Of a DNA stretch of 64,000 bases, positions 6,001 to 47,309 are shown piece by piece. Source of the DNA: Antedon mediterranea (Eukaryota > Animalia > Echinodermata); NCBI RefSeq assembly GCF_964355755.1, contig NC_092675.1:12519812-12583811 (forward strand), written 5' to 3'. Position 1 is the first letter of the stretch; every line of letters starts with the position of its first letter. Below the pieces are notes generated by a model, which had not been told where the DNA came from, did no database searches, and saw nothing but the letters and a program-made list of their open reading frames with translations. Both the position numbers and the translations under genes were made by a program.

Positions 6001-8194
6001 ATTTCGACAAAACTTTTTCACACAAAACACCAAAGTGCTTAGAATAGCTTCAAATCGCATTTGGAGACGTTTTAGACCATTTTGTGATTTTCGAAAAAAC
6101 TTGTTAACATAAAAACACCAAAGTGCTTAGAATAGCTTCAAATCGCATTTGGAGACGTTTTAGACCATTTTGTGACTTTCGAAAAAAATTGTTAACATAA
6201 AAACACCAAAGTTCTTAGAATCACATTATAAAACCGTTTTAGACCATTTTGAGCATTTCGATAACACTTTTCACACAAAAACATCAAAGAGCACAAAACA
6301 GCTTAATATCCTATTTAAAAATGTTTTAGACCATTTTGAGCATTTAGACAAAACTTTTTCACACCAAAGTGCTTAGAATAGCTTCAAATCGCATTTGGAG
6401 ACGTTTTAGACCATTTTGTGATTTTCGAAAAAACTTGTTAACATAAAAACACCAAAGTGCTTAGAATAGCTTCAAATCGCATTTGGAGACATTTTAGACC
6501 AATTTGTGATTTTCGAAAAAACTTGTTAACATAAAAACACCAAAGTGCTTAGAATAGCTCCAAATCGTATTTGGAGACGTTTTAGACCATTTTGTGATTT
6601 TCGAAAAAATTTGTTAACATAAAAACACCAAAGTGCTTAGAATAGCTTCAAATCGTATTTGGAGACGTTTTAGACCATTTTGTGATTTTCGAAAAAACTT
6701 GTTAACATAAAAACACCAATGTGCTTAGAATAGCTTCAAATCGCATTTTGAGACGTTTTAGACCATTTTGTGCATTTCGATGAAACTTGGTTACACAAAA
6801 ACATCAAAGTGCTTAAAATCACATTATAAATCGTTTTAGACCATTTTGAGCATTTAGGTAAAACTTTTTCACACAAAACACCAAAGTGCTTAGAATAGCT
6901 TTAAATCGCATTTGGAGACGTTTTAGACCATTTTGTGATTTTTGAAAAAACTTGTTAACATAAAAACACCAAAGTGCTTAGAATAGCTTCAAATCGCATT
7001 TGGAGACGTTTTAGACCATTTTGTGATTTTCGAAAAAACTTTTTAACATAAAAACATCAAAGTGTACAGAATAGCTTCAAATCGCATTTGGAGACGTTTT
7101 AGACCAATTTGTGATTTTCGAAAGAACTTATTAACATAAAAACACCAAAGGGTTTAGAATAGCTTCAAATCGCATTTGGAGACGTTTTAGACCATTTTGT
7201 GATTTTCGAAAAAACTTGTTAACATAAAAACACCAAAGTGCTTAGAATAGCTTCAAATCGCATTTGGAAACGTTTTAGACCATTTTGTGATTTTCGAAAA
7301 AACTTGTTGACATAAAAACACCAAAGTGCTTAGAATAGCTTCAAATCGTATTTGGAGACGTTTTAGACCATTTTGTGCATTTCGATGAAACTTGGTTATA
7401 CAAAAACATCAAAGTGCTTAAAATCACATTATAAACCATTTTAGACCATTTTGAGCATTTCGATAACACTTTTCACACAAAAACATCAAAGAGCACAAAA
7501 TAGCTTAATATCGTATTTAAAAACGTTTTAGACCATTTTGAGCATTTCGACAAAACTTTTTCACACAAAACACCAAAGTGCTTAGAATAGCTTCAAATCG
7601 CATTTGGAGACGTTTTAGACCATTTTGTGATTTTCGAAAAAACTTGTTAACATAAAAACATCAAAGTGTACAGAATAACTTCAAATCGCATTTGGAGACC
7701 GTTTTAGGCCAATTTGTGATTTTCGAAAAAACTTGTTAACCTAAAAATACCAAAGTGTTTAGAATAGCTTCAAATCGCATTTGGAGACGTTTTAGACCAT
7801 TTTGTGATTTTCAAAAAAACTTGTTAACATAAAAACACCAAAGTGCTTAGAATAGCTTCAAATCGCATTTGGAGACATTTTAGACCAATTTGTGATTTTT
7901 GAAAAAACTTGTTAACATAAAAACACCAAAGTGCTTACAATAGCTTCAAATCGTATTTGGAGACGTTTTAGACCATTTTGTGATTTTCGAAAAAACTTGT
8001 TAACATAAAAACACCAAAGTACTTACAATAGCTTCAAATCGCATTTGGAGACGTTTTAGACCATTTTGTGCATTTCGATGAAACTTGGTTACACAAAAAC
8101 ATCAAAGTGCTTAAAATCACATTATAAACCGTTTTAGACCATTTGAGCATTTCGATAACACTTTTCACACAAAAACATCAAAGAGCACAAAATA
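1..8194 (+). repeat. Satellite DNA array, block 1 (88-bp major monomer plus 78- and 87-bp variants)
   Basis: Tandem AACATAAAAACACCAAAGTGCTTAGAATAGCTTCAAATCGCATTTGGAGACGTTTTAGACCATTTTGTGATTTTCGAAAAAACTTGTT. AGCTTCAAAT recurs at 1321 and 1409 (88 bp). GTTTTAGAC anchors at 486, 564, 651 and 738 give 78/87/87-bp variant monomers. Confidence 0.98.
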
Positions 8195-8236
8195 CACAGC
8201 TGTTTCAAACATACGAATTAAGTCATGCGCCCTCAA
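8195..8236 (+). repeat. Left bipartite TIR (14-bp terminal + 11-bp spacer + 17-bp subterminal motif)
   Basis: CACAGCTGTTTCAA (8195-8208), then AAGTCATGCGCCCTCAA (8220-8236), which matches the right-end motif at 16/17 positions in inverted orientation. Confidence 0.85.
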
Positions 8237-8789
8237 CGTTACAAGTCGTATCGCTGGAGTAACAATACATAAACAATTACTTACAAATCCACGTGTGCAG
8301 AGTGGAGTCAAACGTCATTTAAAGACATGTTTTAAACAGCCAATGAGAATGAGATAAAAAAATAAAGGGTCGCTAAAAATATGAATATTCATTAAAGAGT
8401 CCCTGGATGAAACAAGCACGTTGTCGTTTTGTTTTTTTACAAGGAATGTAACGCTGAAAATTAATGGAAGGGTGGACCATAAAATACAAGCATATACCAA
8501 TTTACGCACGTGAGTGACATTTCCAAATTTGGTACATGTTTGTTTGTCCGTATCTTTAAAAAATGTAATTTTCACTCTAATTCTTTGGTACTGCATGATA
8601 ATTTAGTTATCTGTGAATGTTATAACATAGTAATGGTCGAGAGGTGATGGTTGAATTTTTGAGCTACGGCCGTTTCAAATTGTTTCATTTTTAGGCTTAG
8701 GCTTGTGTCTACTCTAGTTGCAACACTGCCTTTCATGTGACAGCTGACACAAATGAGTTTGGAAATGTTACATTATATTAATTATTTAG

Positions 8790-11400
8790 GCCTGGCTGGG
8801 TAGGGTAGGCATATACCAATATTATAGGCCCTATTTTTATTTTAATACTAGGCCTAGGCCCTAGCTAGACCTGTGCTCTCTAGCAGCCTACTACAGAGAA
8901 GCAGCTTTCCGGCTTAGTTAGCCTGGCCTTGAGTAGGCTAGCCTACTACTAGCCTACTACTAGCCTAATAGGTATTAGTAGGCTACCTAATTAAAATTAG
9001 GCCCAGGATCTAGGCCTAGGCCTATATATTTTTAATATTATTTAATCAGTATAATTAATTTTAGTTTTAATAAATTTACAGTATTCATTACAAAAACTGT
9101 AAATTTAATATTATGAGGATTATATATACCATGTATGCAATGACATAGGGAATATTATAGGCCTACCCTGTATGTAATAATTACAATATAAATAATGACA
9201 AGCATCATATTAACATTCGGTTTTGCTCATCACTGCATATTCAAATTAGTATGCAATCATATTAAATTTAATAAGTTAAATTAATTTTATAAAATTGTTA
9301 TAATAATTATTAATGTTATACTATTGTAGGTAGCCTACATATATAGAGCAGTAACCTGAAGTGGCTAAGCAGATTTGGACCATACCTACCATCTATATAG
9401 GTAAGATTATTTTGCTGTTCAAGAAGTAGCAAATATTAAATTGTGTTTACCATGCTATTAATTTTCAATATTAACAATCAATCACTACCTCTGGCTGGGT
9501 AGGCTAGGCCTATATGATAGGCCCTATTTTTATGTTAATATACTAGCTAGACCTGTGCTCTCTATCACTAGCAGCAGCCTACAGAGAAGCAGCTTTCCAG
9601 CTTATTTAGCCTAGCCTAGAGCAATTAGGCTAGGTATAAGTAGACTACCTAATTAGGTCTAGGCTCTACGCCTATATATTATTATTTAATTATTATTAAT
9701 TTTAATTTAATATATTTACAGTATTTATTTAAATAATGTTTCTTATGAGAATACCTGGTTATATATACCCTATGCAATGACATAAGGCATATATGCCTTC
9801 CCTGTATGTAATAATTACAATTAATAATTATTATAAATAATGAATTTTAACATTCGTTTTTGCTCATCACTGCATATTCAAATTAGTATGTATGCAACCA
9901 TATTAAATTTAATAAGCTAATTTTAAGTAATTCTTATAATAATGTTTTACTATTTTGTAGGTACATAGCGGCAACCCAAAGTGGCAAAAACATTTTAAAC
10001 AGATTTGGACCAATACCTAGCAGCCTACCATCTATATACAGTAGGTAAGTTTATTTTACTGCTCAAGAACTAGTAAATTTTAAATTGTGTTTACCATGCT
10101 ATTAATTTTCAATATTAACAATCAATCACTACCAGTGGCTGGGTAGGCTAGGCCTATATTATAGGCCCTATTTTTATTTTAATATACTAGCTAGACCTGT
10201 GCTCTCTAACACTAGCAGCCTACAGAGAAGCAGCTTTCCAGCTTATTTAGCCTAGCCTAGAGCAATAGGCTAGGTATAAGTAGACTACCTAATTAGGTCT
10301 AGGCTCTACGCCTATATATTATTATTTAATTATTATTAATTTTAGTTTTAATATATTTACAGTATTTTATTTAAATAATGTTTATTATGAGAATACCTGG
10401 TTATATATACCCTATGCAATGACATAAGGCATATATGCCTACCCTGTATGTAATAATTACAATTATTATAAATAATGAATTTTAACATTCGTTTTTGCTC
10501 ATCACTGCATATTCAAATTAGTATGTATGCAACCATATTAAATTTAATAAGCTAATTTTAATTAATTCTTATAGTAATGTTTTACTATTTTTTTAGGTAC
10601 ATAGCGGCAACCCGAAGTGGAAAAATCATTTTAAACAGATTTGGACCAATACCTATACCTACCATCTATATTATAGGTAAGTTTATTTTACTGTTCAAGA
10701 ACTAGTCAATTTTAAATTGTGTTTACCATGCTATTAATTTTCAATATTAACAACCAATCACTACCACTGGCTGGGCTAGGCTAGGCTAGGCCAGGCTAGG
10801 CTAGGCCCTATTTTTATTTTAATATACTAGCTAGACCTGTGCTCTCTTGCACTAGCAGCCTAAGAGAAGCAGCTTTCCAGCTTATTTAGCCTAGCCTAGA
10901 GCAATAGGCTAGGTATTAGTAGGCTACCTAATTAGGCCTAGAGGCTATTATTAATTTTTATTTTTAATATATTTACAGTATTTATTACAAATAATGTTTA
11001 TTATGAGGATACCTGGTTATATATACCCTATGCAATGACATAAGGCATATATGCCTACCCTGTATGTAATAATTACAATTATTATAAATAATGAATTTTA
11101 ACATTTGTTTTTGCTCATCACTGCATATTCAAATTTGTGTGTATGCAACCATAGTAAATATAATAAGTTAATTTTAATTAATTCTTATTATAATGTTATA
11201 CTATTACTATTAATATTTTTTAGGTACATAATAATATAGTATAGCGGCAACCCAAAATGGCTAAAACATTTTAAACAGATTTGGACCAATACCTATACCT
11301 ACCATCTATATAGGTAAGTTTATTTTACTGTTCAAGAACTAGTAAATTTTAAATTGTGTTTACCATGCTATGAATTTGTAACTTTAACAATCAATCACTA
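8790..11400. repeat. Internal tandem repeat of the transposon, 4 copies of ~640-680 bp
   Basis: Anchor GACCTGTGCTCTCT at 8868, 9550, 10194 and 10834 (periods 682, 644, 640). Shared blocks GAGAAGCAGCTTTCC, TGCTCATCACTGCATATTCAAATT and CAGATTTGGACCA. Rich in TAGGCCTA/CCTAG motifs. Confidence 0.93.
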
Positions 11401-11666
11401 ACACATGTACAGTACAGCAGTAGTACTATCAATCAATAGTAATTAGTTAGTAATTGAAATATAGACATACTACTGTATAGTATTACTTTTACATGTTCAT
11501 TATCATTAGGCATTGTTAATAGGAAATCAATACAATGCAATATTCCTTTAACATTTAAAAATGTACAATATTTTATGATCATTAATGTTAATGAATCATT
11601 CTTTGTTGGCTTTCTTGCATTTGTTGGGTTTTATTATTTCATTTTGTATCATTGGAGATGTGAAAG

Positions 11667-11867
11667 TCAGATGAGTCTAAGTTTGACTCTAATCCACACT
11701 GCTGTTTTGTGACGGTTGAGTTTGGCATGTATTAGCTCCCCGCCTTGTTCAGAGACCACCTTCCATTCTCTCATGAATGCAATAGCATGGTGCTCAAGCA
11801 TATGTAGCTTAGGCTGTATTACACCTGGTGCAATATGCCTGTATTCTGCTAAAAATACTTGTATCAT
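11667..11867 (-). pseudogene. Transposase C-terminal catalytic fragment (Chapaev/Transib/RAG1-like)
   Basis: IQPKLHMLEHH...SEQGGELIHAKLNR parallels the HxxxxH zinc ligands and downstream catalytic Glu helix of RAG1-family transposases (RAG1 YFHKTLAH...SEGNESGNK). The spacing looks shortened by a small deletion. Recognised by eye. Confidence 0.75.
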
Positions 11868-12299
11868 ATTTTTTATGTAATTAAAAAAATACTTATTTTA
11901 CACATTAATACATTTTATAATTTCAGAAATTTTGTGATGAAAAAGTCAATCTGTGGTGACTGTAGAATGGACCCGAGTCCTGACTATCTTAGACATTTAA
12001 ATAATAGAAAGTTCTGACAATTTAGTTGAATAGAAATGTACAATGTATGATGTAATCTTAATTGAAAATTGGCAGTTTTTAAACTATGTATATAAATTAG
12101 GATGAGAAAACAGTTATTTGATTATGAGGTATGTTCATTTAAATAAATTTGTTAGTATAAACTTTCAAAAAGAGTGAAGATATAAGGAAGAAAAGCAGAT
12201 TATGGAGCAGCTGTACCAAATAAAAAAACTGTTCCCTTAAACGCCAGTGTGTTCTTTCACTTGTGAATGTAGTTTTTGCCCAGGTCATAGTTGTTGTAA

Positions 12300-12561
12300 G
12301 TTGTTGGTGTAGCATGCCAAGCAATTTTTCCATGCCCTGTTAATTTAAATGTTAGCGTGGTAGTATACAGTATCCATTGCAAATTCGTGAATGGCAGGTT
12401 GTACAAATGTATATAGGTTGTGATTTTACATTTGTTAGATTTAGTGCAAATTTGTGACGGCTTTTCATATTTTAAAAATTGTATTTTTTATCTTTTTCTT
12501 TAAATTTTGTTCCACAACAAAAGCAAGTAGAACGTAAAGCCTTTTCGTGAAACTGTGTTGC
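12300..12561 (-). pseudogene. Transposase N-terminal zinc-finger remnant (Chapa / RAG1 N-terminal-like)
   Basis: Manual translation after a TTTTTGTAG acceptor (12561 to 12352): ATQFHEKALRSTCFCCGTKFKEKDKKYNF*NMKSRHKFALNLTNVKSQPIYICTTCHSRICNGYCILPR*, then a frameshifted KNCLAC. The pattern H..L..CxxCG / PxxxCxxC / CxxC resembles RAG1 HQANLRHLCRICG...HPTEFCHNC...CDIC. Absent from the ORF track because of the stop codon. Confidence 0.65.
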
Positions 12562-13384
12562 CTACAAAAATGAAAAGAAATGTTAATTTTACCAACCTTT
12601 AATTTTATATTATATTTATCATACAGTAGTTTGAGTATTTTTGTATAGGCTTTAATTTTAAAAGCCTAGGCCTGGTAGTTAGTAGTTTTACTAAATTTTT
12701 ACATTTATGATGAATTATATTCAGTTGAAATAAATACAATGATAATAATTAAGCTTATTATTTAATCTATTGTAAATTAAAATGATATATAGCATGATTA
12801 CACTACTTATACGTACCAACTAGGCCTAGCTACAACCTAGGCCTAGTTGCGTACAGCCTAGCGAGCGGTTATCAGACGCGTTCATCGACCTCTCGCCAAA
12901 TACGCTGTTTCGCATTTAACAAAACAGTCGAGTTTTTCAATGAAAATTTCTTGAGATTTTCACCGTCACCTCCTAACAATTCAATGTCTCATGTAAGCAT
13001 ATATAATCAAACTTTTACCTAGATTTTCCAAGTATTATGAAAATTACGAATAAAAACAAAAAGTGTACAATTTGACAAGCATTTTTTCAAACTTTCCATT
13101 GTTTACATTTGCTAGGCCGATCGATGTTAATTTTTAAAACTTCCGGGTGTAAATAATTTCGTAAACTTGGTGTTATGCTTAATTACTTATTATTTCCAAA
13201 AAATCGGTAATTAAAAAACTTATTTTCTAACAAATAGTATAAAAATGGTTTTATAATATTTATGACGAAATTGATTAAAATAATTTAAAGTGTAGTTATA
13301 AAAGTTGCAAATGTCGCGAAAGTTGAACGAGATTCAACCACTCGCGCGGCGTCACGCTCAGGCACATATCGCCGTCTGACAATA

Positions 13385-13436
13385 TTGAGGGCGCTTGACT
13401 TTCTCTATTTATTTTACATTGGTTGAAACAGCTGTG
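13385..13436 (-). repeat. Right bipartite TIR (17-bp subterminal motif + 21-bp spacer + 14-bp terminal)
   Basis: TTGAGGGCGCTTGACTT (13385-13401) and TTGAAACAGCTGTG (13423-13436). Confidence 0.85.
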
Positions 13437-16400
13437 AATAGCTTAATATCGTATTTAAAAACGTTTTAGACCATTTTGAGCATTTCGACAAAACTTTTTT
13501 ACACAAAACACCAAAGTGCTTAGAATAGCTTCAAATCGCATTTGGAGACGTTTTAGACCAATTTGTGCATTTCAATGAAACTTGGTTACACAAAAACATC
13601 AAAGTGCTTAAAATCACATTATAAATCGTTTTAGACCATTTTGAGCATTTTGATAACACTTTTCACACAAAAACATCAAAGAGCACAAAATAGCTTAATA
13701 TCGTATTCAAAAACGTTTTAGACCATTTTGAGCATTTCGACAAAACTTGTTAACATAAAAACACCAAAGTGCTTAGAATAGCGTCAAATCGTATTTGGAG
13801 ACGTTTTAGACCATTTTGTGATTTTCGAAAAAACTTGTTAACATAAAAACACCAAAGTGCTTAGAATAGCTTCAAATCGCATTTGGAGACGTTTTAGACC
13901 ATTTTGTGATTTTCGATAAAACTTTTTAACATAAAAACACCAAAGTGCTTAGAATAGCTTCAAATCACATTTGGAGACGTTTTAGACCATTTTGTGATTT
14001 TCGAAAAAACTTGTTAACATAAAAACACGAAAGTGCTTAGAATAGCTTCAAATCGCATTTGGAAGCGTTTTAGACCATTTTGTGATTTTCGAAAAAAATT
14101 GTTAACATAAAAACACCAAAGTGCTTAGAATCACATTATAAACCGTTTTAGACCATTTTGAGCATTTCGATAACACTTTTCACACAAAAACATCAAAGAG
14201 CACAAAATAGCTTAATATCGTATTTAAAAACGTTTTAGACCATTTTGAGCATTTAGACAAAACTTTTTCACACAAAACACCAAAGTGCTTAGAATAGCTT
14301 CAAATCGCATTTGGAGACGTTTTAGAACATTTTGTGTTTTTCGAAAAAAACTGTTAACATAAAAACACCAAAGTGCTTAGAATAGCTTCAAATCGCATTT
14401 GGAGACGCTTTAGACCATTTTGTGATTTTCGAAAAAAATTGTTAACATAAAAACACCAAAGTGCTTAGAATCACATTATAAACCGTTTTAGACCATTTGA
14501 GCATTTCGATAACAATTTTCACACAAAAACATCAAAGAGCACAAAATAGCTTAATATCGTATTTAAAAATGTTTTAGACCATTTTGAGCATTTAGAAAAA
14601 ACTTTTTCACACAAAACACCAAAGTGCTTAGAATAGCTTCAAATCGTATTTGGAGACGTTTTAGACCATTTTGAGATTTTCGAAAAAACTTGTTAACATA
14701 AAAACACCAAAGTGCTTAGAATAGCTTCAAATCGTATTTGGAGACGTTTTAGACCATTTTGTGATTTTCGAAAAAACTTGTTAACATAAAAACACCAAAG
14801 TGCTTAGAATAGCTTCAAATCGCATTTGGAGACGTTTTAGACCATTTTGTGCATTTTGATGAAACTTGGTTACACAAAAACTTCAAAGTGCTTAAAATCA
14901 CATTATAAACCGTTTTAGACCATTTTGAGCATTTCGATAACACTTTTCACACAAAAACATCAAAGAGCACAAAATAGCTTAATATCGTATTTAAAAACGT
15001 TTTAGACCATTTTGAGCATTTCGACAAAACTTTTTCACACAAAACACCAAAGTGCTTAGAATAGCTTCAAATCGCATTTGGAGACGTTTTAGACAATTTT
15101 GTGATTTTCGAAAAAACTTGTTAACATAAAAACACCAAAGTGCTTAGAATAGCTTCAAATCGCATTTGGAGACGTTTTAGACCATTTTGTGATTTTCGAA
15201 AAAACTTGTTAACATAAAAACACCAAAGTGCTTAGAATAGCTTCAAATCGTATTTGGAGACGTTTTAGACCATTTTGTGATTTTCGAAAAAACTTGGTTA
15301 CACAAAAACATCAAAGTGCTTAAAATCACATTATAAACCGTTTTAGACCATTTTGAGCATTTCTATAACACTTTTCACACAAAAACATCAAAGAGCACAA
15401 AATAGCTTAATATCGTGTTTAAAAACGTTTTAGACCATTTTGAGCATTTCGACAAAACTTTTTCACACAAAACACCAAAGTGCTTAGAATAGCTTCAAAT
15501 CGCATTTGGAGACGTTTTAGACCATTTCGTGATTTTCGAAAAAAACTTGTTAACATAAAAACACCAAAGTGCTTAGAATAGCTTCAAATCGTATTTGGAG
15601 ACGTTTTAGACCATTTTGTGATTTTCGAAAAAACTTGTTAACATAAAAACACCAAAGTTCTTAGAATCACATTATAAACAGTTTTAGACCATTTTGAGCA
15701 TTTCGATAACAATTTTCACACAAAAACATCAAAGAGCACAAAATAGCTTAATATCGTATTTAAAAATGTTTTAGACCATTTTGAGCATTTAGACAAAACT
15801 TTTTCACACAAAACACCAAAGTGCTTAGGATAGCTTCAAATTGCATTTGGAGACGTTTTAGACCATTTTGTGATTTTCGAAAAAACTTGTTAACATAAAA
15901 ACAACGAAGTGCTTAGAATAGCTTCAAATCGAATTTGGAGACGTTTTAGACCATTTTGTGATTTTCGAAAAAACATGTCAACATAAAAACACCAAAGGGT
16001 TTAGAATAGCTTCAAATCGCATTTGGAGACGTTTTAGACCATTTTGTGATTTTCGAAAAAACTTGTTAACATAAAAACACCAAAGTGCTTAGAATAGCTT
16101 CAAATCGTATTTGGAGACGTTTTAGACCATTTTGAGATTTTCGAAAAAACTTGGTTACACAAAAACATCAAAGTGCTTAAAATCACATTATAAACCGTTT
16201 TAGACCATTTTGAGCATTTCGATAAAACTTTTCACACAAAAACATCAAAGAGCACAAAATAGCTTAATATCGTATTTAAAAACGTTTTAGACCATTTTGA
16301 GCATTTCGACAAAACTTTTTCACACAAAACACCAAAGTGCTTAGAATAGCTTCAAATCGCATTTGGAGACGTTTTAGACCAATTTGTGCATTTCGATGAA

Positions 16401-18137: not shown

Positions 18138-19094
18138 TAGTCTGGGTTCCAGACGGAGTTTTGTCTTAATATTAGTTAAAAGATAAATATTTTGGCACAT
18201 ATGGCGTTTCATACGTATACTACTTGATTTTGGATACTCCGTCTGGGGAAACACGCACAAGTCACGTGGTTTGACACCAAGAATTCTTGGTGCATACGAT
18301 TATCCGGTTGACTAGTTTCAGCTGCATGCGATTGGCTACTCTCTCGTACACCGTTTAAATATTCATATTTAAGAATTTCAAAGACTCAACAAATAAGATG
18401 ATGCGCATGCGCTATGTTACGTTTAGACAATGTGTACTTGTTGGGTACATTTATGAAAGTTCTGAAGGCTAGAAATTATTTTATATGCCTAGTAGTCTGG
18501 TAAACATTTGATGGGATCTTTGAAATATGAAAACTCGTCTTGATATATGATAGGCTAGCTTCTCCGCAAATCAAACATTGAATGGATCATTTATTACGCG
18601 GACATAATTTTGATTTAATTCTCACTCAGACCCTGTCCTGTTCTGTGTGGTGGTGTAGCCCTGTTGTGTGCCGGTGGTATGTAGGCCTACTTCATTGGCG
18701 TTTTATTTGGCAGGTCATACGTGCGAGTTGAGTAGGACCTACGAAAGAGGCCTAGGCCAAAGACTAAACAATTAATAAACAAAACAACTTGGCATTACTA
18801 TTTTATATTTCAACAGTCTCGATCGTACATTAAGCACTGGTAGGCCTACGTACTCGATCTCTTTCATTTTGAAACAAAATGATCATTGGTTGATTCGAAA
18901 TCCATATTTACATACCGCCCGCCCCATATAGCCAAATACGGTATGATAACCTACGTCATTCTTATCGTATGTTTGCGGTCTGCAAATCGATTTCTATACG
19001 TGTTTCACAAGTCTGTATTTTCAGAAAAAAATCGCGGTCGAAATAAAAACAAATAAATAAAAAAAAAAGATAATACAGACTTGGGGCAAGTCTA
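18138..19094. mobile_element. 957-bp non-autonomous DNA transposon with 9-bp TSD and TAG...CTA hairpin termini (possibly Academ/AcademH-like; family uncertain)
   Basis: TSD CTTAATATC at 18129-18137 and 19095-19103. Left end TAGTCTGGGTTCCAGAC; right end GACTTGGGGCAAGTCTA. No credible ORF. The family assignment is inferred only from TSD length and TAG ends. Confidence 0.85.
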
Positions 19095-42830: not shown

Positions 42831-43005
42831 TGTCGAGAAGCGATGCGAGTAAGACGTGTCGAATAATCGCTCCTGGAAATCAAACATTTCACGTGTCACA
42901 CCAGCTGAATGCATTGTTACACATAGTCGCAACCTACGTTTACTATTGTTCATTTACCTCAAGGAATTTTGTTTACTCGATTTCAGTGTTTTATTTGCCC
43001 GCAAC

Positions 43006-43830
43006 ATGGGCGGTGGTAAGCCAAAAGGAGGACAGAGGGACGATTCGCCTGCAGCCAGGCCACGTCGTAACCAAAAAGAGGCTGAAGGAAAAGGCATCCC
43101 TTGCCTTAATGATAAATTAGATAAGTCCAATTGCGACATAGACTCTAAGGAAATCGCTGGCATTATCCAATCTGAATTGAAACTCTTATTTGATGGCAAA
43201 TCGGACATATTGGATAACTTAGCGAAACAAATAACATCGATGATCAAGGACCAACTGGCTGAGCATATTATGCAAATTGTTAGTAAAGCCACTATGGATG
43301 CTCTTAGATTTGAACTTGACGAGTCGAATGATCGCATGAAGAAAATGGAACAGGAAATCGAGGACATTAGGGAATCACTGGATGAAAGTGAACAATATTC
43401 CAGGAGGAACTGTTTGGTGATACACGGACTGGAGGAGAAAGTAGGTGAGAATACCGATAATATTGTTACACAATTATTTAGTTCTAAGATGAACCTTACG
43501 GTGAATCATAATGACATTGATAGGAGTCACAGACTAGGCCCCAAGAAACCAAGTAACGGCAAGCCCCGGGGAGTTATTGTGAAGTTTGCTCAATACAATA
43601 AAAGAAATGAAGTTTATAAAGCAAAAAGAAAACTGAAAGGTACCGATACCTTTATACACGAGAACCTAACAATGAAAAGGATGAAATTGTTAAGAACCAT
43701 CAAAACCCAGCATAATTCCGCCTTGACCGCAGTCTGGACCCAAGATGGACGCATACATGTACTAACTAAGAATAATAAGAAGATTATCGTAACAAAATTT
43801 TCCGATCTCAACAAACTGCATTCCACCTAA
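43006..43830 (+). CDS. LINE ORF1 protein (coiled coil + L1-type RRM/CTD, Transposase_22-like), 274 aa
   Basis: ATG in GCAACATGG context at 43006 (the track's GTG start at 42856 is unlikely). Coiled coil followed by EQYSRRNCLVIHGLEE, DIDRSHRLG, RGVIVKF, IHENLT and WTQDGRIHV motifs typical of this ORF1 class. Confidence 0.9.
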   Translation: MGGGKPKGGQRDDSPAARPRRNQKEAEGKGIPCLNDKLDKSNCDIDSKEIAGIIQSELKLLFDGKSDILDNLAKQITSMIKDQLAEHIMQIVSKATMDALRFELDESNDRMKKMEQEIEDIRESLDESEQYSRRNCLVIHGLEEKVGENTDNIVTQLFSSKMNLTVNHNDIDRSHRLGPKKPSNGKPRGVIVKFAQYNKRNEVYKAKRKLKGTDTFIHENLTMKRMKLLRTIKTQHNSALTAVWTQDGRIHVLTKNNKKIIVTKFSDLNKLHST

Positions 43831-44094
43831 TTTACCGTGTGGTAGTACATTAAATGTGAAATTTTGAGATTTCTTGTTTTTGCCCTGAAACCAGAATTTT
43901 AACTATTGTATACATTATAGACTGCATTAACTGTTTGGTGTGTGTGCTTTATTGTGATTCTTTTTATTGTAAATTGTGTTTTTTTTTATTATTGTATTGC
44001 TAACCTGCCGGTTTTTAGTCATTTATTTGAACGCCATTTTGCTTAACAGCTTTGGTGAATTGATTATATTTTGTTCTTTTTCCAATACTACTTT

Positions 44095-47088
44095 ATGAGC
44101 ACGACTCAATATGAAAATAAATCGAGTCCTACACATTCCATAGATTGCTTTGAAAGTGACGAGGCTGGTTTATGCAAATATTTCACTCCAACACAACTTA
44201 ATGAGCTACAGGCGCAAATTGATAACAATGGTATCTTTACAACGTTACACATGAATGCACGTAGTCTTCCAAAACACTTCGACGAAATTAGCATTATGTT
44301 AGATACCATAGGTCGTGCGTTTGATGTACTTGGTTTCTCGGAAACCTGGATAAATAAGAACACGCCAATTGACTTATTAAATATCAATGGATACAATATG
44401 TACACTTGTAATAGAGAAGGTAGAGTCGGTGGTGGAGTTTGTCTATATTTAAAAGAACAAATCAACACCGTAACACGTGATGATTTTGTATTTAATGATA
44501 ATTCCATTGATTCACTTTTTCTAGAAATAATAAACACAAACGGCAAAAATACTATTGTAGGTATGTTGTATCGACCACCAAATTCAAACGTCAACTCATT
44601 TAACTCTGATCTGGAAGAAATCTTACATAAACTTAATCGCGAAAACAAAAACTGCTATATCTTAGGAGATTTTAATCAAGACTTATTAAAATATGACATT
44701 AAAAAAACAACACAGGAATTCACAAACATTATTTACTCAACATCTTTTAATCCATTAATCAACTTACCCACCAGAATAACATCGTCTTCTGCTACAATTT
44801 TAGATAATATTATTACAAATGATGATAACATTTCGCATTGTGGAGTAATAGTCACTGACATTACCGATCATCTACCCATTTTCATGACAACACACTTGTC
44901 ATTAAATACTAACACACAAGCTCCAATTACAAAACAAAAAGTAATTAATGATACAACATTAAATAACTTGCTTATTGCTATTTCTAATGAGGATTGGGGT
45001 GAACTATATTTATGCACAGATACCAATACATCATATAACCTATTTATTAATAAACTATCCAATCTCATAGATAGTAACATACCTACAAAAAGTAATAAGC
45101 CAAATGGTAATACAAAGAAAAAACCATGGATCACAACAGGAATTTTGATTTCAATAAAAAAGAAAAATAAACTTTATAAAAAATACCTTAAAAACCCAAC
45201 ACAATTATTAAAAAATATATATAAAAAGTACAAAAATAAATTAACTCATTTAATTAGAATTCGGAAAAAACAATATTATTCCAAAAAACTGGATGCAGCT
45301 CGACACGATTCAAAGCAAACATGGAAAGTTTTAAATGAAGTTCTAAATAGAAAAAAATCGAGTGTTAAGCCAAATGAGGTAATTAACCATAGTAATAAAA
45401 CTTTGGTATGTGATCCAAAAGGTATGTCTGACGCTTTTAATGACTTCTTCTCCAACATTGGAAATGAATTAGCAAACAAAATACCAAATGTAAACAATTC
45501 TGACTTTAAACAATATATGAAAGAGAGTCAATCCCAATCCATATTTTTCAATCCTACGAATGAAGAAGAGGTCATTGAAATAGTTAGTCAAATCAAAAAT
45601 TCAAATTCAGAAGGTGTTGATAACTTAAGTAATCGCATTCTAAAACATATTATTGCTGCTGTGGCATCTCCTCTTGTACATATCTTTAACCTCTCTCTTG
45701 AGACAGGCATGGTCCCTGATAGTATGAAAGTAGCTAGAGTAGTTCCAATTTTTAAATCTGGCAATAAAAGTGACGTCAGTAATTATAGGCCGATCTCTAT
45801 TCTGCCTACCGCTTCAAAAATTCTTGAAAAAATTGTTCAAATTAGAGTAAATAATTATATCACAAAGTTTAACATCCTTAATAATGCACAATATGGTTTC
45901 AGAAAAAACAGTTCTACTTTTATGGCTGTTATAGATCTGGTTGAACGAATAACCGATGCGCTTGATAAGAAAAAAAATACCATCGGAATATTTATTGATT
46001 TGTCAAAAGCGTTTGACACCATCAACCATGATATACTTCTTAAAAAATTGGAACACTATGGCATAAGAGGCACGGCCCTTAAATGGTTTAGAAACTATAT
46101 TAGTGGAAGGAAACAATTTACGTCTATTGATAACACAAGTTCGTGTTTGATGGATATAAATTGCGGTGTACCACAGGGTTCAATTCTGGGGCCTCTACTT
46201 TTTATTTTGTACATTAACGATGTATTTAATTGCTCAAACTCGTTATCTTTTGTTTTATTTGCTGACGACACAAACATATCTGCATCTCACGAAAACTTGG
46301 ATACGCTCATAGAACTAGTTAATGGTGAACTAAAAAATGTTTCGGATTGGTTCATGTGCAATAAACTATCAATCAACGTTAAAAAAACTAATTACATAAT
46401 TTTCCGCAATCAGCGAAATCCAAGTAATTTAGAGAATGTAAATATTTATGTCAACAATAAAAGAATAGATAGAGTTAAATCGACTAAATTCCTTGGAGTA
46501 CATATTGATGAATTTCTCACATATAAGAACCACATCAATGTTACAGCTAGGAAAATATCTCGATATGTAGGCATACTATATAAAGTAAGACATTTTTTAC
46601 CAACCTATGCTCTCTGGACAATAAACAAATCACTCATTGAACCAGTATTAAATTATTGCAACATAATATGGTGTAGCACATTTCCAAGTTATTTAGATGA
46701 GTTATTTAAACTCCAGAAAAGGGCATTACGAGCTATAACATGGTCAAAGTTTAATGATTCAATGACTGAATGCTTCTATAAATTTAAACTTCTTAAAATT
46801 GCTGATATCAATAAGTACCAAATTGGGCTTTTCATGTATAATGTTACTACTAATCAGGACGTGCGTTTTTCATCGCTCTTTATTAAAAATGGTTCTTACC
46901 ATAATTATAATACAAGATCTAAAGACAAAATGAGACTCAGAAAACGTAATCGTACTTCTACTAGTTTTACTGTGTCATGTGTGGGACCCAAATTGTGGAA
47001 TGACTTGAATTACGAACTACAAAGTACCAAATCAATATATATATTTAAATCATTGTTTAAAGAACATTTATTATCATTTTACAAATAA
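44095..47088 (+). CDS. LINE ORF2: apurinic-like endonuclease + reverse transcriptase, ~997 aa
   Basis: APE motifs HMNARSL, FSETW, YRPP, GDFN, LDNI, TDHLP. RT motifs NYRPISIL, QYGFR, FIDLSKAFDT, GVPQGSILGPLLF, FADD, KFLGV. No stops or frameshifts. First ATG at 44095. Confidence 0.97.
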   Translation: MSTTQYENKSSPTHSIDCFESDEAGLCKYFTPTQLNELQAQIDNNGIFTTLHMNARSLPKHFDEISIMLDTIGRAFDVLGFSETWINKNTPIDLLNINGYNMYTCNREGRVGGGVCLYLKEQINTVTRDDFVFNDNSIDSLFLEIINTNGKNTIVGMLYRPPNSNVNSFNSDLEEILHKLNRENKNCYILGDFNQDLLKYDIKKTTQEFTNIIYSTSFNPLINLPTRITSSSATILDNIITNDDNISHCGVIVTDITDHLPIFMTTHLSLNTNTQAPITKQKVINDTTLNNLLIAISNEDWGELYLCTDTNTSYNLFINKLSNLIDSNIPTKSNKPNGNTKKKPWITTGILISIKKKNKLYKKYLKNPTQLLKNIYKKYKNKLTHLIRIRKKQYYSKKLDAARHDSKQTWKVLNEVLNRKKSSVKPNEVINHSNKTLVCDPKGMSDAFNDFFSNIGNELANKIPNVNNSDFKQYMKESQSQSIFFNPTNEEEVIEIVSQIKNSNSEGVDNLSNRILKHIIAAVASPLVHIFNLSLETGMVPDSMKVARVVPIFKSGNKSDVSNYRPISILPTASKILEKIVQIRVNNYITKFNILNNAQYGFRKNSSTFMAVIDLVERITDALDKKKNTIGIFIDLSKAFDTINHDILLKKLEHYGIRGTALKWFRNYISGRKQFTSIDNTSSCLMDINCGVPQGSILGPLLFILYINDVFNCSNSLSFVLFADDTNISASHENLDTLIELVNGELKNVSDWFMCNKLSINVKKTNYIIFRNQRNPSNLENVNIYVNNKRIDRVKSTKFLGVHIDEFLTYKNHINVTARKISRYVGILYKVRHFLPTYALWTINKSLIEPVLNYCNIIWCSTFPSYLDELFKLQKRALRAITWSKFNDSMTECFYKFKLLKIADINKYQIGLFMYNVTTNQDVRFSSLFIKNGSYHNYNTRSKDKMRLRKRNRTSTSFTVSCVGPKLWNDLNYELQSTKSIYIFKSLFKEHLLSFYK

Positions 47089-47166
47089 TTTTAAAAATCA
47101 TACTTGTTGCAGGATTTAGCTTTTTTATTATTTATGTTTTAGTTTTTTAGGCTAGTTAGGGACTTA

Positions 47167-47212
47167 GGGGGACACAACTAATCAAGCTCTTTTGAGTTTT
47201 TATGTGTTTCCT
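47167..47212 (+). other. Putative 3' UTR stem-loop of the LINE (RT recognition signal)
   Basis: GGGGGACACA...TGTGTTTCC outer stem enclosing an AAGCTC-TTTT-GAGTTT hairpin, ~70 nt upstream of the tail. L2/CR1-type LINEs use 3' stem-loops; function here is inferred. Confidence 0.5.
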
Positions 47213-47279
47213 TTTCATCTTTTTTATGTTCTCATATATTGTTGTTGTATATTTTCATGATAGAGGATGAATAAAGAAT

Positions 47280-47309
47280 ATTTGATTTGATTTGATTTGA
47301 TTTGATTTG
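47280..47309 (+). repeat. (ATTTG)6 microsatellite tail of the LINE
   Basis: Six perfect ATTTG units directly after AATAAAGAAT. Confidence 0.95.

What the first reader, a model, noticed from the sequence alone, without database searches (positions are those of the whole stretch)
8195..13436. RAG1-related (Chapaev-type) transposon with RSS-like bipartite, asymmetric ends differing by one helical turn
Seen: each end has a 14-bp terminal repeat starting CACAGCT (the RSS heptamer is CACAGTG) and a second inverted 17-bp motif AAGTCA(T/A)GCGCCCTCAA. The non-conserved spacers are 11 bp (left) and 21 bp (right), or 12/22 if the motif is taken as 16 bp. Known: V(D)J RSSs use heptamer-12/23-nonamer, and Transib/RAGL TIRs can be bipartite and asymmetric. 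Inference: a 4-bp-TSD Chapaev-type element with a 10-bp spacer offset suggests a 12/23-like asymmetric synapsis rule in this sister lineage. I am not aware of this being described for Chapaev, but I cannot verify that here.
Basis: partly seen in the sequence, partly recalled or inferred. Interest (0 to 1): 0.85.

Follow-up and report, generated by a model that had tools for sequence, protein, structure and literature searches.

The report
Chapaev transposons with short-plus-long ends
This is a disabled cut-and-paste transposon related to the antibody-gene recombinase RAG1; its two ends carry the same second motif at spacings that differ by one turn of the DNA helix, four related families show the same offset, and the enzyme therefore likely pairs one short end with one long end, as RAG does under the 12/23 rule.

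Summary
Observation confirmed. The 5,242-bp element (8195-13436) has perfect 14-bp TIRs, a 4-bp AATA duplication, and a 17-bp inner motif after spacers of 11 and 21 bp. It sits in an 88-bp satellite and keeps only a decayed C-terminal piece of a classical Chapaev transposase. The offset is not a private indel. Among 80 metagenome loci with related transposases, all four families with both ends recovered show a 10- or 11-bp offset (13 of 15 distinct elements; all 9 with intact 4-bp TSDs). No family is symmetric. Spacer length is kept while spacer sequence is not, and the short end can be 5' or 3' of the gene. A relative's predicted transposase matches the RAG1 core (Z 27). Correction: counted from a heptamer, the window's spacers are 18/28; one related family is 12/22. 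Such asymmetry is published for Transib and RAG-like transposons; my searches found none for Chapaev, but Repbase Reports were not searchable. The scan earlier noted a Transib case, no Chapaev one. A pairing rule is inferred (about 0.55), not shown.

The parts
8195..13436 (.). Whole non-autonomous Chapaev element, 5,242 bp, inserted in an 88-bp satellite
8191..8194 (+). Left copy of the 4-bp target-site duplication AATA
8195..8208 (+). 14-bp TIR of the short end (3' of the transposase remnant)
8209..8219 (+). 11-bp spacer (short end)
   Evidence: no gap here in contigs X9 record 24 and X4 record 8
8220..8236 (+). 17-bp inner motif, starting at element position 26
8792..11404 (.). Four internal tandem units of about 630-700 bp, 83-97% identical (filler)
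11635..11927 (-). Decayed C-terminal remnant of a Chapaev transposase, with the H(4)H motif and the EQGGE motif; it has a stop, a 4-codon deletion and a frameshift relative to P0001
13385..13401 (-). 17-bp inner motif, starting at element position 36 from the right end
13402..13422 (-). 21-bp spacer (long end, 5' of the transposase remnant)
   Evidence: no gap in X4 record 15; a -1 and a +1 change in an X7 contig of equal depth, net zero
13423..13436 (-). 14-bp TIR of the long end
13437..13440 (+). Right copy of the 4-bp target-site duplication AATA

Best explanation
This is a non-autonomous Chapaev DNA transposon whose two ends are bipartite and differ by one helical turn, a design shared by related Chapaev families, and its RAG1-like transposase likely binds the second motifs of both ends and favours a short+long pair when it brings the ends together. 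Shown: the ends, the 4-bp TSD, the transposase remnant, the conserved 10-11-bp offset across families, spacer length kept without spacer sequence, and the flip of short/long polarity between families. Predicted: the RAG1-like fold of the transposase. Inferred: (1) an autonomous family member supplied transposase in trans and inserted this copy into the satellite; (2) the catalytic core grips the outer 13-14 bp while a three-helix domain just before the core, at the place of RAG1's nonamer-binding domain, reads the inner motif; (3) an offset of 10-11 bp keeps both inner motifs on the same face of the helix; (4) a tilted dimer of that domain fits one short and one long end better than two of a kind.
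For: Family: the remnant is 74% identical over 50 aa to P0001 and matches 34 of 41 proteins by tblastn, only at the C-terminus; relatives carry the Chapa domain (PF12560), often a RING, and a DUF1280 core. Conservation: in an unbiased scan of offsets -30 to +30, the best was 10 or 11 in 13 of 13 elements tested (window plus 12 relatives chosen for intact ends). Counting all distinct both-end relatives, including those left out of that scan, 13 of 15 have 10 or 11, including all 9 with a 4-bp TSD. No family has offset 0. The five families fall in three separate places on the tree. Long spacers of seven families share 3.8 of 13 positions on average, about chance, against 10.0 of 13 for the TIR. 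Of 15 single ends from 14 further families, 10 have the motif at position 17-18 and 2 at position 27. The short end is 5' in F1, F2, F6 and 3' in F27 and the window. Fold: the model of a relative (L001, pLDDT 96) matches RAG1 4wwx at Z 27.0, rmsd 8.2, 514 aligned, model 30-668 on RAG1 405-1008, which runs into the nonamer-binding domain (Foldseek E 5.6e-15). In RAG the NBD dimer pivots to fit the 12/23 pair (10.1101/2023.08.20.553239, passages).
Against: No biochemistry. Only three independent lineages have both ends, so symmetric families could have been missed; F1, F2 and F6 are one clade in one host assembly. F6's shared block is not significant by itself (shuffle p 0.064-0.074), and F27 is a single contig without a TSD. 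Two both-end relatives break the pattern: L055/L060 has an 8-bp duplication and L064 has lost the 5' motif; neither has a matching TSD. One single 3' end (L024) has a 1-bp deletion. The window's own ends do not match the relatives' core motif (p 0.36-0.40). One X1 contig on the window's right end has 5 gap positions at places not shown. Calling the three-helix domain an NBD rests on its position and the full-length alignment. Against a strict rule by analogy: RAG1 without RAG2 is reported not to prefer 12/23 over 12/12 (PMC8355894, passages); invertebrate RAGL is proposed to be insensitive to TIR asymmetry (PMC7204232, passages); subgroup II Transibs include symmetric families (PMC9435367, whole text).
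Confidence: 0.55

Rival explanations
1. Helical phasing only. Each end needs its inner motif at n or n+1 turns from the tip. The short/long difference was inherited from an ancestor and kept because most indels break the phase, but the enzyme would accept two short or two long ends.
For: It explains the two position classes (17-19 and 27-29) and the kept spacer lengths equally well. Symmetric and asymmetric families coexist in Transib subgroup II (PMC9435367). The amphioxus RAGL NBD is described as auxiliary (PMC7204232).
Against: 0 of 5 families, in three separate lineages, are symmetric. The offset survived a change of motif sequence (window family) and a flip of polarity.
Confidence: 0.3
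2. The two ends have different jobs, for example ordered assembly on one end first, or a host factor or promoter element on one end. The offset would reflect left/right specialisation rather than a geometric pairing rule.
For: Sequence beyond the motif differs between the two ends and looks end-specific within the F1/F2/F6 clade. Non-equivalent ends are common in transposons such as piggyBac, P and Tn7 (recalled).
Against: The offset is always 10 or 11 bp, and which end is short changes relative to the gene. That fits a geometric cause better than a left/right role.
Confidence: 0.12
3. A private 10-bp indel in a once-symmetric TIR of this copy, with no functional meaning.
For: The copy is decayed internally, and the read laying tables hide 131 and 99 weaker indel rows.
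Against: Contigs with other flanks keep each spacer without gaps (X9 record 24, X4 record 15). The two spacers share no alignable sequence. Four other families show the same offset.
Confidence: 0.03

Closest known systems
Classical Chapaev transposons (Kapitonov and Jurka 2007, not seen; described in PMC4079192 and PMC4411706), subgroup of Chapaev-1/2_BF, -1/2_NV and -4/6/7_HM
   Same: CAC...GTG termini, 4-bp TSD, Chapa domain with or without RING in relatives, C(2)C, LH and H(4)H motifs, DDE core. The Chapa domains of the relatives resemble this subgroup by eye against supplement 5 of PMC4411706.
   Different: This copy is non-autonomous, with tandem filler. I found no description of bipartite, asymmetric ends for Chapaev.
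Transib families with RSS12/RSS23-like ends (PMC1131882 section 9; subgroup I Transibs in PMC9435367)
   Same: CAC termini, a second motif, one short and one long spacer, RAG1-like fold (HzTransib Z 17.9).
   Different: Transib has 5-bp TSDs, an A-rich nonamer-like motif and no Chapa domain. Here the TSD is 4 bp and the motif is not nonamer-like.
RAGL transposons: AanRAGL (13-bp element, 4/13 spacers, 10-bp element; PMC9435367) and PflRAGL-A (10-bp asymmetry; 10.1101/2023.08.20.553239)
   Same: AanRAGL's layout is nearly that of families F1, F2, F6 and F27 (13-bp TIR, then 3-5 or 13-15 bp, then a 10-bp motif). The fold matches BbRAGL at Z 26.1.
   Different: RAGL elements have 5-bp TSDs and encode RAG2L. 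The Chapaev core is 13-15% identical to RAG1 and no sequence profile match was seen.
V(D)J recombination signal sequences (heptamer, 12 or 23 bp, nonamer)
   Same: First five bases CACAG, and a one-turn difference between partners. Family F1 has 7 + 12/22 + 9 bp.
   Different: The window element is 7 + 18/28. Positions 8-14 are conserved TIR rather than free spacer, the motif is not the nonamer, and no pairing rule has been shown.

Membership tests
Chapaev (classical) | 5'-CAC...GTG-3' termini | tested here: met
   definition in PMC4079192
Chapaev (classical) | 3-4-bp TSD (4 bp; Chapaev3 has 3-bp TWA) | tested here: met
   AATA, with empty sites; 4-bp TSD in 9 distinct relatives
Chapaev (classical) | DDE transposase with C(2)C, LH and H(4)H motifs | tested here: met
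   The window remnant keeps H(4)H and EQGGE. In the family alignment D203 is kept in 108 of 108, D273 in 118 of 119, E621 in 99 of 101; C292, C295, L362 and H363 are nearly invariant
Chapaev (classical) | N-terminal Chapa domain, with or without RING | tested here: inconclusive
   Deleted from the window copy. PF12560 matches 6 of the 9 proteins scanned (3 above the curated cut-off), a RING 3 of 9; the other three are fragments
Chapaev (classical) | Groups with Repbase Chapaev transposases in a tree with RAG1, RAG1L and Transib | not testable with these tools
   No Repbase, RAG1 or Transib sequences were held; the tree has only family members
Chapaev3 | 3-bp TWA TSD | tested here: not met
   The TSD is the 4-bp AATA
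Transib | 5-bp TSD | tested here: not met
   4 bp in the window; no 5-bp TSD in 17 of 17 relative rows
Transib | Core only, no Chapa or RING domain | tested here: not met
   Relatives carry Chapa and RING; definition in PMC4411706
RAGL transposon | 5-bp TSD | tested here: not met
   definition in PMC7204232
RAGL transposon | RAG2L gene inside the element | tested here: inconclusive
   The window element has no ORF of 120 aa or more. ORFs of four complete relatives were listed but not scanned with a RAG2 profile
RSS-type 12/23 system | Heptamer, 12- or 23-bp spacer, A-rich nonamer | tested here: not met
   Window 18/28 with a GC-rich motif; F1 and F6 12/22, F2 9/20, F27 7/17
RSS-type 12/23 system | One-turn spacer difference between the two ends | tested here: met
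   10 or 11 bp in 5 of 5 families
RSS-type 12/23 system | Nonamer-binding domain | tested here: inconclusive
   Three helices at the matching place, aligned to RAG1 from residue 405 in the full model. Folded alone: RAG1 NBD 3gnb at Z 3.3, rmsd 5.1, 60 aligned, rank 13, not above unrelated rows
RSS-type 12/23 system | Cleavage requires a short+long pair | not testable with these tools
   Needs spacer-swap assays

The most novel reading that the evidence does not exclude
Chapaev transposases enforce a true 12/23-type rule (one short plus one long end) through an NBD-like dimer, without any RAG2 partner. The rule that governs antibody gene assembly would then be ancestral to the whole Chapaev/Transib/RAG clade and still at work in a large, widespread, apparently single-gene transposon family.
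Probability: 0.35. Interest if true: 0.85.

Novelty: new variant of a known kind. Interest (0 to 1): 0.64.

Why it matters
Where the 12/23 asymmetry came from, and whether transposons use it, is an open question in RAG evolution. Published cases are Transib and RAG-like elements. Finding the same one-turn offset across Chapaev, their more distant relative, moves the feature deeper in the tree, or shows it arose again on the same fold. It also offers a simple test: several relatives have uninterrupted 900-980-codon transposase frames (L001, L005, L013) and families with defined ends and varied 4-bp TSDs, so spacer-swap assays could ask directly whether a transposase of this kind has a pairing rule. 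The window copy itself is an ordinary dead element.

Tried and rejected
No genome was held for the window, so copies could not be counted genome-wide. The end pattern found nothing in metagenome contigs. Viral contigs gave no relatives in three scans. Prokaryote genomes gave 2 loci, probably misbinned or weak; L081 showed no family end. Pfam missed the remnant. A sequence profile of the family did not reach RAG1 or Transib in the PDB; it hit only prefoldin coiled coils. The three-helix domain folded alone gave no strong match in either search. A two-copy complex prediction of that domain gave no answer, neither for nor against. No RNA holder was listed. Runs X10 and X13 did not cover the ends. 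I laid 8 of the 14 listed runs; X1 and X2 are one sample and may be the window's source. Inverted-repeat searches found no second end in 21 loci examined, and 21 of 39 clusters gave no end at all, mostly on short contigs. One spurious pairing (L025 6056-12440, offset 6) appeared and displaced that locus's true pair, which is. Rejected as chance: the 6-bp CCTCAA shared with the AanRAGL inner motif, and an A-run at the 23-RSS nonamer position of the window's long end. The N-RAG-TP paper of Panchin and Moroz was not held.
Full report
The observation. The element spans 8195-13436. Both ends start with the same 14 bp, and a 17-bp motif (16 of 17 identical) follows after 11 bp on the left and 21 bp on the right. 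The motif occurs nowhere else in the window with up to 2 mismatches, and 0 of 100 shuffles gave two hits. AATA flanks both ends. Uninterrupted satellite units carry it once, and contigs from 4 of 4 runs skip exactly 5246 bases there, so the TSD is 4 bp. The rest of the window is an 88-bp satellite with two other insertions.

What it is. The interior has no ORF of 120 aa or more. It holds four tandem units of about 640 bp and, on the minus strand at about 11927-11635, a decayed piece of a transposase C-terminus. This piece is 74% identical over 50 aa to an uncharacterised crinoid protein (P0001) and matches 34 of 41 held proteins at their C-termini only. Full-length relatives carry the RAG1 N-terminal (Chapa) domain PF12560, often a RING, and a DUF1280 core. 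That is the architecture described for Chapaev (PMC4411706, passages and supplement 5 part 1 of 2). CAC...GTG ends with a 3-4-bp TSD define the group (PMC4079192, passages). On a short tree (125 columns, window row 43% filled) the remnant groups with two crinoid proteins (99/95 and 99/93). The host is likely an echinoderm; that is inference.

The element's own family. No genome was available, so I laid run contigs on the element. A contig from another organism label covers 8192-8771 without gaps and starts with 26 unrelated letters (X9 record 24). One covers 13096-13436 without gaps and runs on for 19 unrelated letters (X4 record 15). One keeps the left end, with its single gap apparently at 8432, and then diverges (X4 record 8). 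In run X7 a one-base loss at 13408 and a one-base gain at 13412 have equal depth, so the long spacer's length is unchanged, and loose ends before 13373 and 13386 suggest other families that share only the last 51-64 bp. Against: X1 record 7 has 5 gap positions within 13321-13435 at places not shown, and both calls hide weaker indel rows (131 and 99).

Other families. A protein scan of metagenome contigs confirmed 112 of 361 candidates and returned the best 80, in 39 clusters. Both ends were recovered in 4 clusters, single ends in 14, none in 21. The TIR is nearly the window's (for example CACGGCTGTTTCA). I scanned offsets from -30 to +30 between the two ends without presetting a value. The best was 10 or 11 in 13 of 13 elements: window -10, F1 +10 (4 copies), F2 +11 (4), F6 +10 (3), F27 -10 (1). 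Shuffle p was at most 0.012 except for F6 (0.064-0.074). That set left out exact duplicates (L056, L031, L026, L037) and three elements found damaged or later. With L070 (offset 10), L055/L060 (8-bp duplication) and L064 (5' motif deleted), the count is 13 of 15 distinct both-end relatives. All 9 with a 4-bp TSD have 10 or 11, and the two exceptions lack a matching TSD. By distinct flanks, motif position is kept in F1 at 6 of 7 5' ends and 8 of 9 3' ends, in F2 at 4 of 4 and 4 of 5, in F6 at 3 of 3 and 3 of 3. A matrix trained on hand-aligned motifs of those four families placed the motif at 17-18 in 10 and at 27 in 2 of 15 single ends; 3 were unclear, and 9 of 15 had p below 0.05. Seven of the ten short ones are one clade. 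Long spacers of seven families share 3.8 of 13 positions, the TIRs 10.0 of 13: length is kept, sequence is not. The short end is 5' of the gene in F1, F2 and F6, and 3' in F27 and the window. These five families occupy three separate places on the tree, so the independent sample is three lineages, none symmetric.

A correction. The window's shared block starts at positions 26 and 36, further in than in the relatives, and the relatives' core motif is not recognisable in it (p 0.36-0.40). Counted from a heptamer the spacers are 18/28 in the window, 12/22 in F1 and F6, 9/20 in F2 and 7/17 in F27. The conserved feature is the one-turn difference, not the numbers 12 and 23. F1, with 7 + 12/22 + 9 bp, is the closest to an RSS pair.

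The protein. A sequence profile does not reach RAG1, but the fold does. The model of residues 230-902 of the L001 transposase (120-sequence alignment, pLDDT 96) matches RAG1 at Z 27.0 (rmsd 8.2, 514 aligned, 13% identity), amphioxus RAGL at 26.1, HzTransib at 17.9 and P element at 12.6 (Foldseek agrees). The best alignment covers model 30-668 on RAG1 405-1008 and so includes three helices at the place of the nonamer-binding domain. Folded alone, that domain ranks RAG1's NBD 13th at Z 3.3, not above unrelated helical rows, so the assignment is positional. Acidic residues and the C(2)C, LH and H(4)H motifs are conserved. This model is of a relative, not of the window's own lost enzyme.

Mechanism. 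Most likely an autonomous relative mobilised this copy. The core would bind the outer 13-14 bp and the three-helix domain the inner motif, kept on one helical face by the 10-11-bp step, and a tilted dimer would favour one short and one long end, as described for the RAG NBD (10.1101/2023.08.20.553239, passages). I put this at 0.55. The main rival (0.3) is phasing without a pairing rule. It fits reports that RAG1 without RAG2 shows no 12/23 preference (PMC8355894, passages), that invertebrate RAGL is probably insensitive to asymmetry (PMC7204232, passages), and that some Transibs are symmetric (PMC9435367, whole text).

What is known. Asymmetric bipartite ends are published for Transib (PMC1131882, sections 9 and 11), for AanRAGL (13 bp, 4/13, 10 bp, almost the layout of F1-F27; PMC9435367) and for PflRAGL-A (10-bp asymmetry). 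Both later papers treat asymmetry as ancestral for Transib and RAGL. For Chapaev, searches gave no such description. Word look-ups found no 'asymmetr' in PMC4411706, PMC4079192, the Nozomi preprint or PMC12730594, no 'TIR' in the NZD preprint, and no 'Chapaev' in the supplement of PMC9435367. I saw passages only of those papers. Repbase Reports, the 2008 N-RAG-TP paper (content recalled only), subscription reviews and bioRxiv supplements could not be seen and may bear on novelty. The scan's own notes hold a Transib-type case with 30/41 spacers and no Chapaev case.

Verdict. The element is a new, dead member of Chapaev. The conserved one-turn asymmetry of Chapaev ends is a new variant of a known design, well supported as a sequence feature and untested as a rule. 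Interest 0.64.

Noticed in passing
window 18138-19094: A 957-bp insertion in the satellite with TAG...CTA termini, a 9-bp TSD (CTTAATATC) and a short hairpin at each end. It recalls AcademH elements (recalled, not tested). It lies a few bases from the equivalent of the Chapaev target site in the satellite unit.
   Followed up: partly
window 42831-47305: An apparently full-length LINE, CR1/L2-like by recall: ORF1 at 42853-43830, an intact 1009-codon endonuclease plus reverse transcriptase frame at 44059-47088, and an (ATTTG)n tail.
   Followed up: partly
window 1-64000: An 88-bp satellite with higher-order units (252 and 340 bp) fills the window apart from three insertions; possibly centromeric or pericentromeric.
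   Followed up: no
window 11935-12013: A short stretch inside the element is shared with another repeat: many contigs end here with unrelated sequence on both sides.
   Followed up: no
L050 and L057; L031 7781-15715: Chapaev copies caught in long inverted duplications of about 8-11 kb with the two 3' ends facing apart; these could be assembly artefacts or aberrant transposition products.
   Followed up: no
model me5301be107ca, residues about 386-470: The Chapaev core carries a long helical hairpin, which drew the coiled-coil matches. It lies after the LH motif; whether it stands in for a partner such as RAG2 is an open idea.
   Followed up: no
L045 3123-12691: A separate pair of ends starting CACAATG, the Transib heptamer given in PMC1131882, surrounds the F4 copy, with a 13-bp match; possibly a Transib element into which the Chapaev copy inserted.
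   Followed up: no
L081: A Chapaev-type transposase on a 2.9-kb contig of a Gammaproteobacteria MAG, probably a misbinned eukaryotic contig.
   Followed up: partly
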